64,000 bases of DNA from an uncultured Erysipelotrichaceae bacterium (GTDB lineage: Bacteria > Bacillota_I > Bacilli_A > RF39 > UBA660). The number at the start of each line of letters is the position of its first letter. Position 1 is the first letter of the stretch. Shown here in pieces: positions 6,375 through 24,568 of the stretch. The notes below the pieces were generated by a model that worked only from the letters and a program-made list of their open reading frames with translations, was not told the DNA's origin and ran no database searches. The translations under genes were made by a program, and so were the position numbers. The stretch lies in NCBI GenBank assembly GCA_902764145.1, contig CACWUS010000005.1:4207-68206 (forward strand), in the 5' to 3' direction.

Positions 6375-6563
6375 ATGGCAGTTAAACAAGTCAAATTCAA
6401 TGATACTTATATCTATATTAATGATGAAGTAGATGATAAGGAAACTGGTATAAAAATATCTAAAGATAATTTAAGTGAAGAAACAAAAATAATTGAAAAG
6501 ATTAATATTCAAGAATCACTTGAGAAAACCTCTTTAGATATCATGGGTGATAAAAATGAGTGA
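6375..6563 (+). CDS. Small acidic hypothetical protein (62 aa)
   Basis: GGAG RBS upstream; overlaps the start of the next ORF. Confidence 0.55.
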   Translation: MAVKQVKFNDTYIYINDEVDDKETGIKISKDNLSEETKIIEKINIQESLEKTSLDIMGDKNE

Positions 6564-7983
6564 TAATCTTCCTAATACAAGTTTCTATTATGATTTGTCT
6601 ACTGCTAAAGAAATGGATTCATTTCTAAAATATATTAATACAATCGCTAAAAGTAATCCTGAATTATATATAAGTTCTGATATTATATATAATGAATTAA
6701 AACATAATAATTTGAGAAAGGCTGAAATTGATAATTATTCTCAAGGTATTTCTACTGAACATTTTTTTGAAATTTGGAGACAAAAATTTTCAGGAAGAAA
6801 TAATTTATTAGCATTTAGAGATGAAGTTAATCTTCCATATTTTTTTCAATTTATTAATCAAATAAAAAATGATAGTGGAGAATATATTAAGCTATATATT
6901 CCACTTGATTATGATCATTTATTAGATGGAGTAAATGAAATAATTGATTTTCTTGATAGAGAAGAAATAGAATATGAATCTAAAGTTAGTGCAAATATGA
7001 GAGTCGACAACGTAACTATTAGACTTAAAGCAAGTGATTTTGATAATGCTAATAAAATAATAGATTTTATTACCAATAATCCTAAAATTAGGGGAGGTTT
7101 AAATAAAAACAATCCTTTTGTTCCAACTCGTAAGGGTATTGGGATAATGTGTGATCATGGTAATAGCTATAATAGGGATATATCAAGATTAATTAGTTCT
7201 TATTTTGTTTACTGTAGAACTAATCATGTTGATGAAGTAAGTATAGAAGAATTTAGAAAATATATTAAAAGTGCTTGTTATGATATGAGTGTCTTAGATA
7301 CATTTGAACTTGCTTACAATGGTTATAGTAGGGTTAATACTAATGAAGGAATCTTAAATGGAATATTAAGTGAAGAACAAAAATTTATGCTTTTCTTAGA
7401 TACTATTAGGGAAACATATAATAAGCATGGTATTAAACAAGTTAAATCTGCTATTTCACTTGCAATTAGTGAAAATGATTATGGAAGTTTTTCTAGAGGT
7501 AGTGGTGTTACTAAATTAAGAGAAAACTTAGAAAAATATGTTACTGGTGAAGAAATGTTTAGTATGATAAATGATAGACTTAGATTGTTAATGGATCCAG
7601 AAGAAATTAGTGTAAGTGTTGATGGAGCAGCAAGTCAATTTTGTGATATTCTATTTAGTGATGAACTTATATTTATACTTGATGAAGTATCAAATGTAAC
7701 TATTGAATCTTATGGGGAATCACAACTTAAATATGCTTTAAATAATTTCTTATATACTGGAAGTACTAATGGTTTTTCAAGATATAGAAATAATGATACT
7801 TTAATTAATTATAGAAAAATGATGTCTCAATTTGATAATAGAACAATTTTAGATATTGTTTCTAAATCACTTAGAGTAAAAGGAATAAATACATCTGGCG
7901 TAGATATAAGAGATTTGATTAACGTTTATGCTCACTATTTAGTCGAATCAAAATATGAATTTAGTGAACAAATTAAAAGATAA
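6556..7983 (+). CDS. Hypothetical protein; central HopA1-like domain (tentative) and two C-terminal helical repeats
   Basis: KLYIPL...KV...RVDNVTIRL...NPFVP...GIGIMCD..NSYN pattern; repeated TxxxYGxxQxxxA...GFSR unit. ATG at 6556 preferred over GTG at 6547. Confidence 0.5.
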   Translation: MSDNLPNTSFYYDLSTAKEMDSFLKYINTIAKSNPELYISSDIIYNELKHNNLRKAEIDNYSQGISTEHFFEIWRQKFSGRNNLLAFRDEVNLPYFFQFINQIKNDSGEYIKLYIPLDYDHLLDGVNEIIDFLDREEIEYESKVSANMRVDNVTIRLKASDFDNANKIIDFITNNPKIRGGLNKNNPFVPTRKGIGIMCDHGNSYNRDISRLISSYFVYCRTNHVDEVSIEEFRKYIKSACYDMSVLDTFELAYNGYSRVNTNEGILNGILSEEQKFMLFLDTIRETYNKHGIKQVKSAISLAISENDYGSFSRGSGVTKLRENLEKYVTGEEMFSMINDRLRLLMDPEEISVSVDGAASQFCDILFSDELIFILDEVSNVTIESYGESQLKYALNNFLYTGSTNGFSRYRNNDTLINYRKMMSQFDNRTILDIVSKSLRVKGINTSGVDIRDLINVYAHYLVESKYEFSEQIKR

Positions 7984-8087: not shown

Positions 8088-8648
8088 ATGAGACAAGAAA
8101 GAGGACTTCAAAATACTGTAATAGTAGTTTTAGCAATAGCAATATTAGTTATGTCTGTTGGTTTTGCAACATATTCTGAAAATTTAAAAATCAATGGTAC
8201 AGCTACATTTAATAAGGCAACATGGGATGTTCGTTTTAATAAAACATCATTTAATGAAACAAGCGATATCAAAGCTACTACTAAAAGTGTAGAAGATAAA
8301 GTAATTTCATATTCTGTTACATTACCAAAACCAGGTTCTATTTATTCTTTCACAGTTAATGTTCAAAACTATGGAACTATTGATGCAGAACTTAAGAAAA
8401 TTACTATGACTGGTTTAACAGCAGAACAAGCTAAGTATATTAGTCATAAAGTAACTTATGATGGAACTGATTATACTCAAACTACTGACAATATCACTGG
8501 TAAAGTGATCGCTGGTGGTGGTACTGCTACTGCTACAGTTGTAGTTACAGTTAAATATGAATTACCTGCAGAAGCAACAGATTTACCATCTGAAGATCAA
8601 ACAGTTAACTTAAATGTTGAATTTGATTATGTTGATGCAAACTTATAA
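8088..8648 (+). CDS. TasA/camelysin-like small secreted subunit, putative major fibre pilin
   Basis: Strong RBS (AGGAGG); signal ending MSVGFA/TYS followed by LKINGTAT; beta-rich Ig-like body (PGSIYSFTVNVQNYGTIDA); first gene before a SipW-type peptidase. Confidence 0.65.
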   Translation: MRQERGLQNTVIVVLAIAILVMSVGFATYSENLKINGTATFNKATWDVRFNKTSFNETSDIKATTKSVEDKVISYSVTLPKPGSIYSFTVNVQNYGTIDAELKKITMTGLTAEQAKYISHKVTYDGTDYTQTTDNITGKVIAGGGTATATVVVTVKYELPAEATDLPSEDQTVNLNVEFDYVDANL

Positions 8649-8696: not shown

Positions 8697-8715
8697 TATC
8701 AACTTGGGGTCAAGT

Positions 8716-9855
8716 ATGAAAAACATAAGATTATACTTAGTGGAGATACTGCTATTTATTTTTGTTATAGTATTTAATATTTTTTATAAAAATATATATG
8801 TTTTGAATGGCTTAATAATTGCTATATCAATTTTCTGTTACATATTTTTTGGATATAAAAAAGATAATTCATATATAAGAAATAGCGTAATTAGAATTGT
8901 GATAGCATGTTTGCTTTCTTTTTTGGTTATTTCTTATTCAACAGGACTTTTTTTAGGATTTAATAAGTCTGTTGCTACATTTAGTGCAAACTATATTACA
9001 AGAATAGTTTTGTTTAATTTTGTAGTAATAGTAAGTGAAGAGATAATAAGATATATAATAATCAATAAATCTATAAATAGTAAACTACCTATGATTTTGT
9101 TTACTATTATTATGTGTGTATTAAATATTATAACAGAAATAAATGGGAATATTTTATCTGATAGAGAATTAATTTTTGTCTTTATTAGTGTTACAGTTTT
9201 ACCAGTTATTTCTAGGGAAATTTTGTGTTCTTATTTAACTTATAGTATTGGACCAATACCATCTATTGTTTTTAAAAGTATAATTGTTTTATATGAATTA
9301 GTATTTCCAATAATACCTAGTTTAGGTAATTATTTGTATTCTGTATTTAATATTTTCTTACCATATTTTATTTACTATTTTTCAAGTAAAACAATTGCTT
9401 ATGCAGAAAAGTCTAAAAAATATTCAAGGAAAGTATCTAACAGAGTTGTTTATATACCAATACTTGTTGTATTAATAGTAATTATTATACTTGTATCTGG
9501 AGTTTTAAAATACAAAATGATAGCAATTGGATCTAACTCAATGCATCCTGTTTACGATAGAGGAGATGCAATTATTTATGAAAAGATTAAAAATGTAAAT
9601 AATCTTAAAATTGGAGAAGTTATTGCTTTTAGAAAAGGTGATATAGTAATTACACATAGAATAAGCAACATTACTAATAGAAATGGTGTAATAAGCTTTA
9701 AAACAAAAGGTGATAATAATAATAGTGAGGATTATTTTGAGGTTCCATCTTCTGATGTGTTAGGATTAGTTGAATATAGGATACAATATATAGGTTACCC
9801 TACATTATGGATAAATGAATATTTTAGAGGAGGGGAAATAGATTATGAACAATAA
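8716..9855 (+). CDS. sipW: SipW/ER-type (S26B) signal peptidase I fused to an N-terminal polytopic membrane domain
   Basis: GSNSMHP (Ser), ITHRI (His, not Lys) and TKGDNN..ED motifs in the C-terminal ~130 aa; about 7-8 TM helices upstream. Confidence 0.85.
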   Translation: MKNIRLYLVEILLFIFVIVFNIFYKNIYVLNGLIIAISIFCYIFFGYKKDNSYIRNSVIRIVIACLLSFLVISYSTGLFLGFNKSVATFSANYITRIVLFNFVVIVSEEIIRYIIINKSINSKLPMILFTIIMCVLNIITEINGNILSDRELIFVFISVTVLPVISREILCSYLTYSIGPIPSIVFKSIIVLYELVFPIIPSLGNYLYSVFNIFLPYFIYYFSSKTIAYAEKSKKYSRKVSNRVVYIPILVVLIVIIILVSGVLKYKMIAIGSNSMHPVYDRGDAIIYEKIKNVNNLKIGEVIAFRKGDIVITHRISNITNRNGVISFKTKGDNNNSEDYFEVPSSDVLGLVEYRIQYIGYPTLWINEYFRGGEIDYEQ

Positions 9856-10888
9856 AAAATATATTTTATTACAAATATTGTTTGTTTTTGGTATAGTCTT
9901 ATTTTCCCTAATGGATATATATTTATATAAGAATGGGTATTTTGAGGAAAAGAAAATAACTTTAAAATATAATGAATCTGGTCCTGATGTTGATTACAAA
10001 GTTTATTTAAAGGAAAATGATTTTTTTGATAAAAAGTATTTAACAAAAGAAGACAATAAAACATTTATTACTAGTTTGATTGATTATATTAATATTGAAT
10101 ATAATTATGTAATGCAATTTGATACTAAAGTTAATGCTAATTATAAGTATTATATAGTAGCAACTCTTGAAGCTAATAAAAATAATAGTGAATCTAATTA
10201 TTGGTCTAAGGATTATAGAATTACTGATGAAAAAAGTTACGAATTAAAAAATATAAATGAATATGTTATTCATAATAATGTTGATGTTGATTATAATAAA
10301 TATAATGGTATACTAGGTTCTTTTAAGAAAACATTAAATCTTAATGGTTCTAGTGGAGTATTAAAAGTATATATGGTTATAAATAGTGAAGTTAGTGGTA
10401 ATGGTATTGAAACACCAATAGAAAGTAAATTACTATTAGTAAAATTGCCATTAACTGAGATGACAATAGATGCTAGTGTTGAAACTTTACCTAGTGATAA
10501 TGTTAAAGAAATTAGTAAAGTAATTGATAGTAATAGAGTTCAAATAATGAAATCTATTGGATATATATACGTTGGCGCTGTTATCGTGTGTATAATTTTA
10601 TTAATTTATATATCAAATAGAAAAAAGAATGCCAATAGATATGAAAGTGAACTTAAGAAAATTTTAAATACATATGATAGCATTATAGTTAATGTTAAAA
10701 AATTACCAGATTTAACTGGATATAAAGTTATTGATGTTCTTAATTTTAATGAACTATTAGATGCTCATGGTGAAGTGAGAATGCCAATAAACTATTATAG
10801 AGATGAATATAGAAGTTTCTTTATACTTTTAAATGATAAAACAGCATGGAGATTTGTAATGAGTAGAATTAGAATAGAAAGGAAGTGA
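9845..10888 (+). CDS. DUF5305-like protein with TM at both ends of a beta-rich ectodomain
   Basis: N-terminal TM, VDYKVYLKENDFF, beta-rich middle, second TM, cytoplasmic YDSIIV...FNELLDA...PINYY tail; overlaps both neighbours. Confidence 0.55.
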   Translation: MNNKKYILLQILFVFGIVLFSLMDIYLYKNGYFEEKKITLKYNESGPDVDYKVYLKENDFFDKKYLTKEDNKTFITSLIDYINIEYNYVMQFDTKVNANYKYYIVATLEANKNNSESNYWSKDYRITDEKSYELKNINEYVIHNNVDVDYNKYNGILGSFKKTLNLNGSSGVLKVYMVINSEVSGNGIETPIESKLLLVKLPLTEMTIDASVETLPSDNVKEISKVIDSNRVQIMKSIGYIYVGAVIVCIILLIYISNRKKNANRYESELKKILNTYDSIIVNVKKLPDLTGYKVIDVLNFNELLDAHGEVRMPINYYRDEYRSFFILLNDKTAWRFVMSRIRIERK

Positions 10889-10893
10889 GTTAT

Positions 10894-13269
10894 ATGAATA
10901 ATAAGTTTAGGCTTATTGTAACTATAATAGTACTTTCTATTTTTCTTTTAATGAGCGTTGGTTATGCTACATATAATATAAAAACAAAAATTGCTGGAGA
11001 AGTAAGTCTTGGCGCTAATGGTGAAGTTGCAATTACTAATGTCGTATTGTCTGATTATAGTAATTTATCAAATCCAGGCGCTCCTACATATACTAAGGAT
11101 AGTATTTCTTTTGATTTAGTTTTTAATGTTGAAAATAATAGTGCTTTAGATGATGATTATTATGCTGAATATGATGTAACTATTTCGAATGATTCATTTT
11201 TTGGTTATGAGTTTGCTTCTTCTGTATTTACACCATCTGTTGAAACTTCAGCTAACGAAAATATGAATGTCGATTATGTTCTTGATGGAATTGAGCCAGG
11301 AGAAATAATACCTGCTTTAGAATCTAAAACTTTCAAATTAAAAATAATAATGTATCCACTTACTGCTGGAGAACATAATGTAACTGGGAATACAAATGTT
11401 GTGTTAGAGGAAGAGGAGGAAGAACCAACTGGAAATTTGCTTGCAAGTATTCCAAAGAATTCTACTATTGATTTAAGAGGAAATACTATTCGAGACAAAG
11501 TAACAGTAACTGTAATTAATTCATATAGTGAATCTAAGACATTTTCTTTTTCAATGAGCAATTCAAATTTTAAATTAGTGAATTCCAGTGGTACAGCTCT
11601 TGGAAACTTTACAATTGCTGCAAATGAAACTCAAACATATGATGTTTATATTGAAAGAAAGAGTGGTGTAACTTTTGCTACTAATCAACAATCTGTTAAT
11701 CTAGTTTTTGTAACTGATGAAGGCAATACAAGTTTAGGTAGTGTTAAAATTCTTGTTGATAAGGATGAAACTTTGCTTGATGATGATCCTCCAGTGATAA
11801 GTAATGTTAATGCTACATTTGTATCAGAGAATGGTAAAGTTAATCTTACATGGGATGCTACTGATATAAGTTCAATTTCTTATTTCATAATTGAAGCTTA
11901 TGATTCTAATGATTCATTAGTTGAGTCATATCAAACTTCAGATGGTTCTACTAGTTATACTGCTACAAATCTTTCTAATGGTACATATTATTTTAGAGTA
12001 TATGGTGTCGACTCAAAAAATAACAATGGAAAAAATAAAGCAACTTCTTGTGAAACTTCAAGTGGTTTTTGTTCAAGAAGTACAAGTGCAACATATACTT
12101 GGGTATTCACAGTAAATTATACTTTAGGAACTAATATTACAAGATCTAGTGGTCCAACTGAAATAGCAATAGGTGAGACATTATCTGCAAGATTTACAGT
12201 TAGTGGAAATAGAAACTTTAATAATATTACTGTAACTATGGGTGGACGAACATTGCAAAGAAATAGTGGATATACATGGTCTACAAATAATGGTACAGGA
12301 ACACTATCAGTACCTAATGTTAATGGAAATATAACAGTCAATATTACTTCTTCTGGTGGAGGATGCTTAGTAGAAGGTACTAAAATCAAACTTGCAAATG
12401 GTAAATTCAAAAAAATAGAAGATATTAGGTATACTGATTTATTAAGTGTATGGTCATATGAAAGTGGTAGCCTTACATATGAATATCCAATATGGATTGA
12501 AAAAAGTGAGAAAAGCGATTCATATCAAAAAGCTACATTTTCAGATGGAACTGTTTTAAAAACAGTTGAACTTCATCAAGTATTTAGTTTAGATGAGAAT
12601 AAATTTGTTAATATTTATGATGAAAATGGTTATATTAAAGTTGGAACAAAAGTTGCAAAAGAAGTGAATGGAAAAATAGTTCCTGTTTATGTTACAAAGG
12701 TTGAAACTGTTTTTGAAAAAGTTAAGTATTATTATGTTGCTTCTTCCATTTATTACAATATTATATCTGAAAATATAATAACAACTTCTGATCAAATAGT
12801 TCCAGGAGTAACTTTGTCAAATATGTATGGTTTCGATAATAGGATTAAATGGTTACCTATAAGAAAAGAAATTATTAATAAACCAAATGCTTTATTTGAA
12901 TATAGTGATTTGGATATAATGCCATATTATTTGTATTTAGGTTCTCGTGGTAATGAAACTAAATTGTTTGTTAATATGGGCTATGCTACTAAAGAAAGCT
13001 TAATAGAATATTTATTAACTACACAACTTGACCCAAAAAGAGCGGTGAGTGTAAATACAAATAAAAAGGGAAATAGATTATGGATGGTAACTACTAGTGT
13101 AGACAAAGTATTGAATTATAAAGATTATTTACATGAGGAAGGAAGTTATTATATTTTACCTAAAGTATTAGGCGTAAAAAAGTGGTATTCTACTTTTGAA
13201 GATAAATATTATTTACCAAATGATAAAGTAAAAGTTAATTATCCAATGCATTTTATTGAAGTTAAATAG
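10894..13269 (+). CDS. Large TasA-like minor subunit: prepilin-like N-terminus, Ig-like domains, Fn3, Hint domain, C-terminal domain
   Basis: Signal MSVGYA/TYN..KIAG matches the 8088 protein; Fn3 (VNLTWD...YTATNLSNGTYYFRVYGVD); SSGGG|CLVEGTKIKLANGKFKKIEDI Hint block A at 12364. Confidence 0.75.
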   Translation: MNNKFRLIVTIIVLSIFLLMSVGYATYNIKTKIAGEVSLGANGEVAITNVVLSDYSNLSNPGAPTYTKDSISFDLVFNVENNSALDDDYYAEYDVTISNDSFFGYEFASSVFTPSVETSANENMNVDYVLDGIEPGEIIPALESKTFKLKIIMYPLTAGEHNVTGNTNVVLEEEEEEPTGNLLASIPKNSTIDLRGNTIRDKVTVTVINSYSESKTFSFSMSNSNFKLVNSSGTALGNFTIAANETQTYDVYIERKSGVTFATNQQSVNLVFVTDEGNTSLGSVKILVDKDETLLDDDPPVISNVNATFVSENGKVNLTWDATDISSISYFIIEAYDSNDSLVESYQTSDGSTSYTATNLSNGTYYFRVYGVDSKNNNGKNKATSCETSSGFCSRSTSATYTWVFTVNYTLGTNITRSSGPTEIAIGETLSARFTVSGNRNFNNITVTMGGRTLQRNSGYTWSTNNGTGTLSVPNVNGNITVNITSSGGGCLVEGTKIKLANGKFKKIEDIRYTDLLSVWSYESGSLTYEYPIWIEKSEKSDSYQKATFSDGTVLKTVELHQVFSLDENKFVNIYDENGYIKVGTKVAKEVNGKIVPVYVTKVETVFEKVKYYYVASSIYYNIISENIITTSDQIVPGVTLSNMYGFDNRIKWLPIRKEIINKPNALFEYSDLDIMPYYLYLGSRGNETKLFVNMGYATKESLIEYLLTTQLDPKRAVSVNTNKKGNRLWMVTTSVDKVLNYKDYLHEEGSYYILPKVLGVKKWYSTFEDKYYLPNDKVKVNYPMHFIEVK

Positions 13270-23218: not shown

Positions 23219-23851
23219 ATGAAAAAATTAAAAATTTTATTTGAGGACAAATATTTAATAGCGGTTTATAAAAAAAGTGGGCTTCCTACTATAAAGGATA
23301 AAAAACATGTTAATAATTTATATAGTGAAGTTTATGATTATTTGCATAAAAAGAATGAACGTGTTTTTATTGTACATAGATTAGATGCTGATACTAGTGG
23401 GATTGTTTTGTTTGCCAAAAATGAGAATGTAAGAAATAATTTACAAGTTAATTGGGATGCTGTAATAAGAGAATATGTTAGTGTAGTACATGGTAAAGTT
23501 AATGATAAAGGAATTATTAAATCATATTTAAAGGAGACTAAAAGTTTAATTACTTATTCAACTAATGATAAGAAAAATGGTAAATATGCTGAAACTCATT
23601 ATGAAAAAATTGATTCAAATGACAAATATAGTCTGATTAAAATAGAAATCAAAACTGGAAGAAAGAATCAAATTAGAGTTCATATGAAAGATAATAAAAC
23701 TCCAATACTTGGAGATAAAAAGTATGGGATTAAAGATAAATTTAAAGAAATGTATTTGCTTGCTAATAGATTATTCTTTGTTCATCCAATTACAAGGAAA
23801 AGAATTGATATTAAATTAGATATACCAAAAAATTATAGAGACTTAATTTAA
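23219..23851 (+). CDS. RluA-family RNA pseudouridine synthase (no S4 domain)
   Basis: VHRLDADTSG (catalytic Asp), TGRKNQIRVH, ILGDKKYG. Confidence 0.92.
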   Translation: MKKLKILFEDKYLIAVYKKSGLPTIKDKKHVNNLYSEVYDYLHKKNERVFIVHRLDADTSGIVLFAKNENVRNNLQVNWDAVIREYVSVVHGKVNDKGIIKSYLKETKSLITYSTNDKKNGKYAETHYEKIDSNDKYSLIKIEIKTGRKNQIRVHMKDNKTPILGDKKYGIKDKFKEMYLLANRLFFVHPITRKRIDIKLDIPKNYRDLI

Positions 23852-24568
23852 GTCTCTTTTTATTAATTTGGCGTGAACTACAGTTTTATCTGTATTGTTA
23901 TAGCAAGTTGAAAGTGTAAGAATATAGTCATCTATTGTAATATCTACATTATAGTTATAAATACTTCTTTTTTTAATTTTATTTATAAAAGTTTTAAAAT
24001 CTTTATCATTAAAATTGGTAGTAATATAATAATCTTCTGTTTTAATATGATAAGAACTAAATATTTGATAATAAAGAGTTTCATTTTCTAGATTTATTGT
24101 TATTATATGATTGTCCTTATTTTTATACCACTTCTTTGTTAATGTATTTTTAAGAGTTCCAAACATTGTTTTATCTTTTCTAGCATGAGCATATATTATA
24201 GTATTTTTATCATTAAAATTTTTATCATTTCTATAGTCCATAAATACCCATCCAGCAGTTGAATATTTATTATCAAAAGAATGTGTTAAATAATAATCAT
24301 TATTTTTATATTGGACAAATGGGTAATTAATATTAGTATTTTTTACTAGTAACCATCCAATTGTATTTTTGTTTTTACTTTTTAATTTTTTAAAATCTAT
24401 TTGTTTTTCGTTTGTTTCTTCATTAATAATAATGGACTTATCTATTTCTTCTATTAATTCTTCTGTATGAGTATTTTCTTTGTTCCACAAAATGATATTT
24501 ATAATGCTATAAATAAAAATAGCAAAAAAAATAATTGTTATACAAATTTGAAATGCTTTCTTCTTCAT
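23843..24568 (-). CDS. srtB: Class B sortase
   Basis: N-terminal TM; IGWL...TNINYP, YYLTH, FMDYR, IIYAH...MFG, LTLSTC (catalytic Cys) and VVHA. Confidence 0.92.
   Translation of the reverse strand: MKKKAFQICITIIFFAIFIYSIINIILWNKENTHTEELIEEIDKSIIINEETNEKQIDFKKLKSKNKNTIGWLLVKNTNINYPFVQYKNNDYYLTHSFDNKYSTAGWVFMDYRNDKNFNDKNTIIYAHARKDKTMFGTLKNTLTKKWYKNKDNHIITINLENETLYYQIFSSYHIKTEDYYITTNFNDKDFKTFINKIKKRSIYNYNVDITIDDYILTLSTCYNNTDKTVVHAKLIKRDLN

What the first reader, a model, noticed from the sequence alone, without database searches (positions are those of the whole stretch)
12364..13269. Hedgehog-like Hint domain (GGG|C, no terminal His-Asn) that could leave a reactive thioester on an adhesin C-terminus
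Seen: after a SSGGG linker the protein reads CLVEGTKIKLANGKFKKIEDI (Hint block A, Cys494 of the 794 aa ORF). His564 (KTVELH) sits 70 residues later at the block-B position. The domain ends YYYVASSIYYNIISENIITTS, aligning with blocks F/G but lacking the His-Asn needed for splicing or C-terminal cleavage. A further ~155 aa follows, ending in a degenerate InlB-B-repeat-like segment. Known: Hedgehog Hint domains form an N-S thioester at Gly|Cys and transfer the N-fragment to a nucleophile chosen by the downstream domain (cholesterol). Inference: the TasA-like/Ig/Fn3 fragment could be released or covalently ligated to a lipid, wall polymer or host amine, a chemical-harpoon mechanism distinct from TED thioester pili. 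The extra domain would act as the nucleophile-recognition region.
Basis: partly seen in the sequence, partly recalled or inferred. Interest (0 to 1): 0.85.

Follow-up and report, generated by a model that had tools for sequence, protein, structure and literature searches.

The report
Self-cleaving Hint module on fibre protein
The last 300 residues of a secreted fibre-associated surface protein of an uncultured gut bacterium are a genuine Hedgehog/intein-type self-cutting domain plus a conserved, unannotated tail. It most likely cuts itself off the finished protein, and whether it also re-attaches the new end to another molecule is untested.

Summary
ORF 10885-13269 (794 aa, probable start ATG 10894) reads SSGGG|C494LVEGT, TVELH564 and NIITTS635 without His-Asn. 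A profile of 34 relatives hits the Tetrahymena BIL2 domain (E 3.6e-6). The AF2 model (pLDDT 92) matches BIL, intein and Hedgehog Hint structures (TM 0.76-0.88).

Cys494, His564 and Thr633 are invariant in 121 relatives. The -1 Gly is not (24/121). The terminal-Asn position is Asp/Ser/Ala and no +1 nucleophile exists, so only the N-terminal acyl shift is possible.

The 159-aa tail is a helical subdomain with no Pfam or PDB match, plus an InlB-B/Flg_new-type domain. In every full-length protein it directly follows this Hint.

The cassette ends TasA/AbpX-type fibre subunits (conserved small subunit–SPase–DUF5305 operon), LRR adhesins and some type IV pilin-like proteins. A shorter Hint+helical version ends most pilin-like proteins and phage tail-fibre-like proteins.

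One clade has cleanly lost Hint+tail 1-2 codons after the Cys while keeping the operon.

Best reading: a self-removing C-terminal pro-domain. Thioester transfer to a lipid, wall polymer or target remains possible (about 0.25). It is a new variant of a known kind, and no cleavage or adduct has been observed.

The parts
10885..13269 (+). ORF of the Hint-bearing large fibre-associated surface protein (794 aa from GTG; probable start ATG 10894, 791 aa; stop TAG 13267-13269)
   Evidence: 193 homologues of the C-terminal module were found. Near-invariant M4 in alignment A3.
10894..10974 (+). Signal/TM segment with the conserved motif LxMSVG[FY]ATY. The small subunit at 8088-8648 carries the same motif. 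G26 and A28 are conserved.
11782..12039 (+). Fibronectin type III domain (residues about 300-385)
   Evidence: Pfam fn3 E 1.7e-5. A3 profile vs PDB titin/fibronectin Fn3, E 2e-25 to 1e-6.
12334..12363 (+). Flexible Ser/Gly/Thr-rich linker before the scissile bond (residues 484-493). The -1 residue Gly493 is not conserved in the family.
   Evidence: pLDDT below 50 for model residues 1-8. Column counts.
12364..12789 (+). Hint domain, residues 494-635. Key residues: Cys494 (12364-12366), Glu539 (12499-12501), Thr560 (12562-12564), His564 (12574-12576), Asn625 (12757-12759), invariant Thr633 (12781-12783), and Ser635 (12787-12789) at the position of the intein terminal Asn.
12790..13029 (+). Helical subdomain of the C-terminal extension (residues 636 to about 715). 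It carries the conserved PYYLYKG686LR688xxE691 motif and is homologous to the 62-78 aa tails of the pilin-type and phage-type Hint proteins. It has no Pfam or PDB match.
13030..13266 (+). Beta subdomain of Listeria-Bacteroides repeat / InlB B-repeat (Flg_new) type (residues about 716-794)
8088..8648 (+). 186-aa small secreted protein (DUF11-like), the candidate major fibre subunit. It has the same signal motif as the large protein.
   Evidence: Conserved upstream in most related loci.
8704..9855 (+). Archaeal/SipW-type signal peptidase I with a long polytopic N-terminal extension
   Evidence: TIGR02228 E 6.5e-25, SipW model E 6e-20. Matches the multi-TM dedicated SPase I described for AbpX/TasA-superfamily loci (bioRxiv 10.64898/2026.01.04.697558).
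9845..10888 (+). DUF5305 protein, the proposed SPase I accessory subunit
   Evidence: Pfam PF17231 E 6e-10..

Best explanation
Residues 494-794 are a portable C-terminal autoprocessing cassette. It consists of a BIL/Hog-type Hint domain that keeps only the first step of intein chemistry, fused to a conserved helical extension and a Flg_new-type beta domain.

After Sec export and removal of the signal peptide by the operon's SipW-type peptidase, Cys494 attacks the carbonyl of residue 493. This N-to-S acyl shift is assisted by the block-B His564. The resulting thioester is resolved by water or an incidental nucleophile, and the 301-aa Hint-CTD piece is released.

The mature product is the TasA/AbpX-type minor fibre subunit (signal-cleaved N-domain, Ig-like domains and Fn3) ending at residue 493. 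The cassette most likely acts as a transient, self-removing C-terminal pro-domain. It would cap or assist folding and assembly at the distal end of a fibre subunit. This is functionally analogous to the self-cleaving intramolecular chaperone domains of phage tail fibres, though unrelated in fold.

Shown here: the Hint fold, the invariant catalytic residues, the absence of splicing and C-cleavage residues, the obligate Hint-tail coupling, the range of host proteins, and the natural deletion at the junction.

Inferred: that cleavage happens, that hydrolysis is the outcome, and the chaperone/cap role.
For: Fold and homology:
- A1 profile vs PDB BIL2 6Y75, E 3.6e-6, over the whole domain.
- AF2 pLDDT 92, pTM 0.89.
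- Foldseek BIL2 E 8.6e-9 TM 0.84; gp41-1 0.88; 2LWY 0.82; 1AT0 0.76.

Catalytic residues:
- Cys494, His564 and Thr633 are 121/121; Asn625 is 120/121.
- Cys494 is the only Cys of the module in 104/121 members.

No second-step chemistry:
- Position 635 is D83, S27, A9, G1, N1.
- The penultimate residue is Thr (111/121), not His.
- Position +1 is G/D/A/H, not C/S/T.

Cassette behaviour:
- In 279 clusters at 50% identity, every full-length protein with the whole CTD has the Hint directly before it, always at the extreme C-terminus.
- Passenger proteins range from 425 to 2470 aa and carry fn3, Flg_new, DUF285 or BspA-LRR domains, or a pilin N_methyl start.

Same Hint + helical tail elsewhere:
- About 45 clusters (90% identity) of pilin-like or signal-peptide proteins, including a paralogue in this genome.
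- Phage tail-fibre/spike-like proteins (Mtd_N, collagen, tail-spike PHROGs; IMG/VR contigs; BFVD hits). In these fibres the C-terminus is usually the distal tip (general knowledge).

Natural experiment:
- Four clusters (77-89% identical to each other) form one clade nested among full-length members.
- They end ...C-G(-I)/C-N-N, 1-2 codons after the catalytic Cys.
- A hairpin followed by a run of T follows the stop in L094, and no Hint remnant lies downstream.
- The small subunit–SPase–DUF5305 operon is intact.
- So the N-fragment works without the cassette, and the deletion boundary coincides with the predicted scissile bond.

Literature: BIL domains without a +1 nucleophile give mainly cleavage products (PMC7664689).
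Against: - No cleavage product, neo-N-terminus or adduct has been observed. Everything about the reaction is inferred from conserved residues.
- The block-B Thr is displaced (TxxxH) and is present in only 108/121.
- The block-F Asp is replaced by His/Tyr/Phe, so the rate could be low.
- A tail of 160 residues with its own near-invariant residues (N646, F650, W656, G686, R688, E691) is more than a leaving group needs. It would fit substrate recognition, as in the Hedgehog SRR.
- The high pTM of Hint+CTD (0.89 vs 0.72 for the CTD alone) suggests the tail packs on the Hint domain.
- The operon contains no other obvious cell anchor. Related AbpX loci in other bacteria carry SLH or LPXTG anchor proteins in this slot.
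- The Hint-less clade shows dispensability only in that lineage.
Confidence: 0.55

Rival explanations
1. Hedgehog-like or sortase-like transfer. The Cys494 thioester is not hydrolysed. It is attacked by a specific nucleophile selected by the conserved helical/Flg_new tail: a membrane lipid or sterol, a wall precursor or polymer, another fibre subunit, or a host or prey surface amine. The C-terminus of the fibre subunit then becomes covalently anchored or 'harpooned'.
For: - The layout Hint + obligatory conserved C-terminal extension mirrors the Hog domain (Hint+SRR/ARR).
- Near-invariant residues in the extension (G686, R688, E691, W656, etc.) are shared with the pilin and phage tails (YYxGLRxxE).
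- Glu539 falls in the same register as Hedgehog Asp46 (15 residues before the DG turn, 25 before the His). This is my manual alignment, plus the active-site list in PMC12054796.
- In AbpX/TasA-superfamily loci of other bacteria, the equivalent slot holds SLH or LPXTG anchor proteins. Here no other anchor lies in the operon.
- One phage-type relative matches the Pfam Hedgehog Hint model through positions 10-209 of 213, which includes the post-Hint region (E 1.2e-4).
Against: - The Hedgehog-specific Cys143 (branched intermediate, PMC12054796) has no equivalent (D/S/A at 635).
- Gly at -1 is not conserved.
- An acidic residue at the Asp46 position is also common in ordinary inteins (my knowledge), so it does not discriminate.
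- The same Hint+tail sits on phage tail fibres assembled in the cytoplasm and on pilin-like proteins. Wall or lipid anchoring is implausible there.
- A clade lost the cassette cleanly and kept the operon.
- The genome has five sortases for conventional anchoring.
- No structural or sequence similarity of the tail to any lipid- or wall-binding domain was found.
Confidence: 0.25
2. A catalytically silent or very slow Hint fold, kept as a structural or binding module at the fibre tip. The precursor stays intact on the surface.
For: Block-B Thr displaced, block-F Asp missing, no terminal His-Asn. Some Hint-like folds have lost autoprocessing (AXH gave weak Pfam hits in 24/34 members).
Against: - Cys494 and His564 are invariant in 121/121 sequences spanning 40-99% identity.
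- Cys is otherwise nearly absent from the module. That is hard to explain without chemistry at this residue.
- The natural deletion falls exactly at the junction.
Confidence: 0.1
3. A polymorphic-toxin-type PT-HINT that releases a C-terminal toxin domain.
For: HINT peptidases placed just before C-terminal toxin domains are common in secreted polymorphic toxins (PMC3482391). A Hint followed by about 155 aa fits that layout superficially.
Against: - The tail is not polymorphic. It is the same domain in all 279 clusters and co-varies with the Hint.
- It ends in a Flg_new surface repeat.
- No toxin family was hit.
- The downstream gene is a phosphoglucosamine-mutase-type housekeeping gene, not an immunity gene.
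- Downstream genes differ between loci.
Confidence: 0.02
4. A non-canonical intein or BIL that splices or cleaves at its C-terminus.
For: Asp at the terminal position (83/121) can substitute for Asn in a few atypical inteins (my knowledge).
Against: - This protein has Ser635.
- The position is D/S/A/G/N, and the penultimate His is absent.
- The +1 residue is never a conserved C/S/T.
- The tail is always retained and conserved with the Hint.
Confidence: 0.03

Closest known systems
Bacterial intein-like (BIL) domains: Tetrahymena BUBL1 BIL2 (PDB 6Y75/6TMM) and Clostridium thermocellum BIL (2LWY)
   Same: Hint fold. Best sequence-profile hit (E 3.6e-6) and best Foldseek hit (TM 0.82-0.84). N-terminal Cys, block-B His, no +1 nucleophile. 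Found in secreted or surface proteins. Expected outcome is cleavage rather than splicing.
   Different: BIL2 and A-type BILs keep the terminal His-Asn and can cleave at both ends. This family has [IL]-L-T-[TS]-[D/S/A] instead, with an invariant Thr. It always carries a conserved 70-160 aa C-terminal extension and always sits at the extreme C-terminus of the host protein.
Hedgehog/Hog autoprocessing domain (Hint + sterol/adduct recognition region; PDB 1AT0)
   Same: Hint fold (TM 0.76). Uses only the N-terminal acyl shift. No terminal His-Asn. C-terminal location with an obligatory, largely helical extension of similar size directly after the Hint. Secreted N-terminal 'passenger' domains of many kinds.
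   Different: No Cys143 equivalent and no conserved Gly at -1. TxxxH instead of TxxH. No demonstrated homology of the extension to the SRR. Bacterial and phage hosts. No evidence of an adduct.
Self-cleaving C-terminal intramolecular chaperone domains of phage tail fibres and spikes (Peptidase S74 type, e.g. T5 pb1, K1F endosialidase)
   Same: Functional analogy only. A conserved cassette at the extreme C-terminus of fibrous proteins, including phage tail fibres, that removes itself autocatalytically after assembly.
   Different: Unrelated fold and chemistry (Ser-Lys dyad versus Cys thioester). A chaperone role for the Hint cassette is inferred, not shown.
PT-HINT of polymorphic toxin systems (Pfam PF07591)
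   Same: A Hint peptidase near the C-terminus of secreted multidomain proteins.
   Different: There the downstream domain is a variable toxin with an adjacent immunity gene. Here the downstream domain is constant and no immunity gene is present.
TasA/AbpX-superfamily fibre loci with a dedicated multi-TM SPase I and DUF5305 (bioRxiv 10.64898/2026.01.04.697558)
   Same: Operon of a small subunit, a polytopic archaeal-type SPase I, DUF5305 and a large minor/tip/anchor subunit that shares the signal motif.
   Different: Described loci use SLH or LPXTG anchors or assorted tip proteins. A Hint-terminated subunit is not mentioned in the passages I read.

Membership tests
Hint (Hedgehog/intein) superfamily | Hint fold | tested here: met
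   AF2 pLDDT 92. Foldseek PDB: 64 hits at E<=1e-3; the 50 best listed are all Hint domains, TM up to 0.88. Profile vs PDB E 3.6e-6 over the whole domain.
Hint (Hedgehog/intein) superfamily | N-terminal nucleophile (Cys/Ser) as first residue (block A) | tested here: met
   Cys494 in 121/121.
Hint (Hedgehog/intein) superfamily | Block B TxxH | tested here: inconclusive
   His564 in 121/121. Thr560 in 108/121 and one residue further away (T-x-x-x-H).
Hint (Hedgehog/intein) superfamily | Match to curated Pfam/NCBIfam Hint models above their cut-offs | tested here: not met
   Hint PF01079 13.9-15.4 bits vs cut-off 29.7. intein_Nterm 12.6-14.5 vs 24.5. Precomputed annotations list no Hint family for any listed member of this subfamily.
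Inteins (class 1-3) | Terminal Asn (or Gln/Asp) with penultimate His, and a Cys/Ser/Thr at +1 | tested here: not met
   Position 635 is D83 S27 A9 G1 N1. Position 634 is Thr 111/121. Position 636 is G/D/A/H.
Inteins (class 1-3) | Insertion inside a conserved host protein whose exteins are ligated | tested here: not met
   Always at the extreme C-terminus, followed only by its own conserved tail.
BIL domains, A-type | C-terminal His-Asn retained, no +1 nucleophile | tested here: not met
   No His-Asn. The no-+1-nucleophile part is met.
Hedgehog Hog domain | Active site C1, D46, T69, H72, C143 (PMC12054796) | tested here: not met
   C1 and His are present. Glu539 aligns with D46 only by manual register. 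The C143 position is D/S/A. hhalign to 1AT0 was uninformative.
Hedgehog Hog domain | Conserved Gly-Cys scissile junction | tested here: not met
   Gly at -1 in 24/121.
Hedgehog Hog domain | Adduct/sterol recognition region after the Hint, required for transfer | tested here: inconclusive
   A conserved helical extension of about 75 aa always follows. Homology or function as an ARR is not shown. No Pfam or PDB match.
PT-HINT / polymorphic toxins | Variable C-terminal toxin domain and adjacent immunity gene | tested here: not met
   Tail conserved in 279 clusters. Downstream gene is a phosphoglucosamine-mutase-type gene here and Mur ligase or L28 elsewhere.
Thioester-domain (TED) adhesins | Internal Cys-Gln thioester domain | tested here: not met
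   No TED family among Pfam hits at E<=1. The only Cys residues outside the Hint are C389 and C396.
TasA/AbpX-type fibre locus | Dedicated archaeal-type SPase I (polytopic) + DUF5305 + subunits sharing a signal/donor motif | tested here: met
   TIGR02228 E 6.5e-25 and DUF5305 E 6e-10. Shared LxMSVG[FY]ATY motif. Both genes lie within the flank in 59/80 related loci.
TasA/AbpX-type fibre locus | TasA-like jelly-roll fold of the subunits with an N-terminal donor strand | not tested
   No sequence hit to TasA for either subunit.

The most novel reading that the evidence does not exclude
The Hint + conserved-extension cassette is a single-turnover, built-in transpeptidase/esterase. It is a bacterial and phage counterpart of Hedgehog cholesteroylation and a sortase-independent route. 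It would covalently join the C-terminus of fibre tip subunits (TasA/AbpX-type, type IV pilin-like, phage tail fibres) to a specific nucleophile on the cell envelope, on another subunit or on the target surface. The helical extension would choose the acceptor.
Probability: 0.25. Interest if true: 0.85.

Novelty: new variant of a known kind. Interest (0 to 1): 0.55.

Why it matters
Hint domains that perform only the first acyl shift are known from BIL proteins and from Hedgehog. This cassette is a distinct, unannotated branch with its own block-G signature ([IL]-L-T-[TS]) and an obligatory conserved extension.

It recurs on hundreds of surface-filament subunits and adhesins of uncultured, small-genome gut and rumen Bacilli, and on phage tail-fibre-like proteins. 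It therefore marks a general way of maturing the distal end of fibres.

If it only cleaves, it is a new class of self-removing pro-domain, and a potentially useful traceless C-terminal tag-removal or thioester-generating module.

If it transfers, it would be the first prokaryotic analogue of Hedgehog-type C-terminal ligation.

The Hint-less clade and the invariant Cys/His/Thr give direct, cheap experimental handles.

Tried and rejected
1. Single-sequence Pfam and NCBIfam scans gave only sub-threshold Hint, AXH and intein hits. Profile and fold searches were needed.
2. Profile-profile alignment of A1 to Hedgehog Hh-C gave a spurious 27-column match. The Glu539/Asp46 equivalence therefore rests on a manual register only.
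3. CTD alone: a confident model (pLDDT 91) but no Foldseek PDB match (best E 0.86). No PDB sequence match. No Pfam family except weak Flg_new.
4. The polymorphic-toxin reading was rejected: constant tail, no immunity gene.
5. The intein/splicing reading was rejected: no Asn/His, no +1 nucleophile.
6. 'Replacement for missing sortases' was rejected. The genome has five sortase genes.
7. tblastn of the window module and of a phage-type module against 50,697 GenBank phage records found nothing. The phage link comes only from metagenomic proteins, two IMG/VR contigs and BFVD models.
8. The promoter/terminator scan of the operon was uninformative.
9. The literature searches listed no paper that ties a Hint domain to SipW/TasA fibres, pilins or tail fibres. 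In one search no listed paper contained 'Hint domain'.
10. I could not map the conserved tail residues onto the model, because coordinates are not exposed.
Full report
**Observation**

The finding covers the last 301 codons of ORF 10885-13269 (+), 794 aa counted from a GTG. The probable start is the ATG at 10894. It follows an AGGAAGTGA ribosome-binding site, it is near-invariant in the family alignment, and close homologues are 791 aa.

- Gly493|Cys494 (TGC 12364-12366) after SSGGG.
- His564 (12574-12576) in KTVELH.
- The end of the domain, YYNIISENIITTS635, without His-Asn.
- 159 further residues.

**Is it a Hint domain?**

Single-sequence HMM scans are all sub-threshold: Pfam Hint E 0.04, AXH 6e-4, NCBIfam intein_Nterm 0.06-0.2.

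The module has at least 193 homologues at 40-99% identity and about 100% coverage, all unnamed. A profile of 34 diverse members (A1) matches the BIL2 Hint domain of Tetrahymena BUBL1 (PDB 6Y75/6TMM) over its whole length, E 3.6e-6. Members individually touch Hom_end_hint (22/34), Hint (17/34) and Intein_splicing (12/34).

AlphaFold2 on A1 gives pLDDT 92 and pTM 0.89. Foldseek against the PDB returns only Hint domains:

| Structure | E-value | TM |
|---|---|---|
| BIL2 | 8.6e-9 | 0.84 |
| gp41-1 intein | – | 0.88 |
| C. thermocellum BIL 2LWY | – | 0.82 |
| Hedgehog 1AT0 | – | 0.76 |

The fold assignment is secure.

**Which chemistry is possible?**

Across 121 relatives:
- Cys494, His564 and Thr633 are invariant, and Asn625 is 120/121.
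- The block-B Thr (Thr560) is 108/121 and sits at -4 from the His.
- The residue aligned with the intein terminal Asn (and with Hedgehog Cys143) is Asp 83, Ser 27, Ala 9, Gly 1, Asn 1.
- The penultimate residue is Thr, not His.
- The +1 residue is Gly/Asp/Ala/His.

Splicing and Asn-cyclisation cleavage are therefore out. Only the N-to-S acyl shift at residue 493|494 and resolution of that thioester remain.

The -1 residue is variable (S31, G24, I22, T22 and others), so the Hedgehog-like Gly|Cys is a lineage detail. Cys494 is the only Cys of the module in 104/121 members. That argues for chemistry at this residue.

Hedgehog's active site is C1, D46, T69, H72 and C143 (PMC12054796). Here C1 and His are present, and Glu539 falls in the D46 register by manual alignment only. 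The hhalign attempt failed, and my Hh-C sequence was verified against 1AT0. C143 has no equivalent.

**The tail**

Residues 636-794 modelled alone give pLDDT 91. There is a helical subdomain (about 640-713) and a beta subdomain (about 731-794).

Foldseek finds nothing in the PDB (best E 0.86). Sequence profiles find no PDB entry. The only Pfam family is Flg_new, weakly, in 5/34 members.

An exhaustive profile search found 279 clusters at 50% identity. My own HMMs for the Hint and CTD show that every full-length protein with the complete tail has this Hint directly before it, always at the extreme C-terminus. 'Tail-only' hits are gene fragments, or Flg_new repeat proteins that match only profile positions 94-158. 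The helical part is new.

**Host proteins and distribution**

In GTDB genomes the module occurs in 97 loci. These are almost all uncultured gut and rumen MAGs labelled Tenericutes, Bacilli, Erysipelotrichaceae or Mollicutes (a few bins carry other labels, e.g. Muribaculaceae, Bacteroides). One is a 1.34-Mb closed genome. The window's genome is 1.45 Mb at about 25% GC.

In 59 of 80 fetched loci, a SipW/archaeal-type signal peptidase I and a DUF5305 gene lie within the flank. In 51 of these they are in the same upstream order, usually preceded by a small DUF11-like protein.

In the window:
- The 186-aa small protein (8088-8648) and the large protein share the signal motif LxMSVG[FY]ATY.
- The peptidase (8704-9855) has a long polytopic N-terminal extension.
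- DUF5305 follows at 9845-10888.

This matches the AbpX/TasA-superfamily fibre loci described in bioRxiv 10.64898/2026.01.04.697558. Those have a ten-TM dedicated SPase I, a DUF5305 accessory protein, minor and tip subunits, and SLH or LPXTG anchors in bacteria. The Hint protein occupies the minor/tip/anchor slot.

Other passengers of the same cassette are DUF285, BspA-type LRR, Flg_new and fn3 arrays of up to 2470 aa, and type IV pilin-like N-termini.

**A wider superfamily**

The genome holds two more Hint ORFs. One, on contig C11, is a 666-aa type IV pilin-like protein (MKKRGFTLVELL...). It ends in a Hint plus a 74-aa helical tail carrying the same YYxGLRxxE motif.

About 45 clusters (90% identity) share this layout behind pilin or signal-peptide N-termini.

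The same Hint+tail also ends phage tail-fibre-like proteins:
- P0298 has an Mtd_N start and sits in a row of three Mtd_N genes.
- P0299 matches tail-spike PHROGs.
- P0301 has collagen repeats.
- Two IMG/VR contigs carry it: a 901-aa tail-fibre-like ORF, and an ORF of more than 2191 aa on an RIIA-bearing contig.
- BFVD hits include a Gaeavirus Hint protein aligned over 220 columns (E 1.8e-16), and fn3- or collagen-annotated Caudovirales proteins.

No cultured phage record has it.

The block-G signature [IL]-L-T-[TS], with the invariant Thr, is shared by all three groups.

**A natural experiment**

Searching with the N-terminal 300 residues found four clusters of 492-493 aa. They end ...TSSTSN-C-G-I...GNI-C-N-N...NNI-C-G and ...TNV-C-G. 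That is one or two codons after the catalytic Cys.
- They form one clade nested among full-length members and are 77-89% identical to each other.
- Their loci keep the small subunit, the peptidase and DUF5305.
- The gene is followed in L094 by a hairpin with a run of T, and then by a convergent Mur ligase gene. No trace of Hint or tail remains.

So the N-fragment is functional without the cassette, and the deletion boundary coincides with the predicted scissile bond.

**Interpretation**

Most likely (0.55) the cassette is a self-removing C-terminal pro-domain. After export, Cys494 forms the thioester. This is resolved, probably by water, releasing Hint-CTD and leaving a mature fibre subunit that ends at residue 493.

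This reading accounts for four observations:
- It occurs on extracellular TasA-type and pilin-type subunits and on cytoplasmically assembled phage fibres alike.
- It always sits at the C-terminal end, which is usually the distal tip of such fibres.
- The second-step residues have been lost.
- It is dispensable in one clade.

A cap or assembly-chaperone role is an analogy to the S74-type intramolecular chaperones of tail fibres, and is inferred.

The main rival (0.25) is Hedgehog- or sortase-like transfer of the acyl group to a specific acceptor chosen by the conserved extension. In its favour:
- The Hog-like layout.
- The conserved residues of the extension.
- The lack of another anchor in the operon.

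Against it:
- There is no Cys143 equivalent.
- The phage and pilin contexts do not fit wall or lipid anchoring.
- Five sortases are present.
- The Hint-less clade exists.

The remaining readings are unlikely, for the reasons given in their entries: a silent Hint (0.1), a polymorphic toxin (0.02) and an atypical intein (0.03).

**Comparison and novelty**

By sequence and fold, the nearest characterised relatives are BIL domains. By logic, the nearest is the Hog domain. The family fails the defining tests of inteins, A-type BILs, Hog and PT-HINT, and is not captured by curated models.

Bürglin (PMC2362128) already noted further poorly characterised bacterial C-terminal Hint groups in secreted proteins. 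The kind is therefore known.

What appears undescribed in the library searched:
- The specific cassette, with its invariant Thr and obligatory helical extension with or without a Flg_new domain.
- Its association with TasA/AbpX-type, pilin-type and phage fibres.

An earlier agent of this scan reached a similar reading on a relative in another genome. That is not independent evidence.

**Verdict**

A real, well-supported feature. It is a new variant of a known kind, and the mechanism beyond thioester competence is inferred. Interest 0.55.

Noticed in passing
own genome contig C11:5881-7887 (outside the window) and C15:3-1205: Two paralogous Hint ORFs. One is a 666-aa type IV pilin-like protein (MKKRGFTLVELL...) ending in a Hint + 74-aa helical tail (YYYGLRFGD), without the Flg_new subdomain. 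The other is a contig-edge fragment of a similar protein.
   Followed up: partly
L089:8001-10262, L090:6282-8543, L093:3967-6672, L092:76-6651: Metagenomic phage tail-fibre/spike-like proteins (Mtd_N, collagen, tail-fibre PHROGs; one ORF of more than 2191 aa on an RIIA-bearing contig) end in a homologous Hint + about 55-90 aa tail. No GenBank phage record has it.
   Followed up: partly
L094:7001-8479, L095:5828-7306, L096:7001-8482: Orthologous operons in which the large subunit stops 1-2 codons after the catalytic Cys (…SN-C-G-I*), with the Hint+CTD cleanly deleted. All four truncated clusters still keep the now C-terminal Cys while the residues after it vary. The reason is unknown.
   Followed up: partly
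window 12781-12783 (Thr633): A Thr two residues before the position of the intein terminal Asn is invariant in 121/121 members and in the pilin and phage subfamilies. No known Hint family conserves a Thr there, and its role is unexplained.
   Followed up: no
window 8704-9855: The SipW/archaeal-type signal peptidase I has only its last about 130 residues as the peptidase domain. A roughly 250-aa polytopic extension precedes it, as in the ten-TM SPase I reported for AbpX loci.
   Followed up: partly
window 10885-10896: The listed GTG start overlaps the DUF5305 stop.
   Followed up: yes
window 6547-7983: A 478-aa ORF just upstream of the fibre operon has no Pfam family and no signal peptide. It recurs (73% identity) only in the near-identical MAG L004.
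   Followed up: no
window 23843-24568 (-): One of the genome's five sortase genes lies about 10 kb downstream of the operon. It is not part of the operon.
   Followed up: partly
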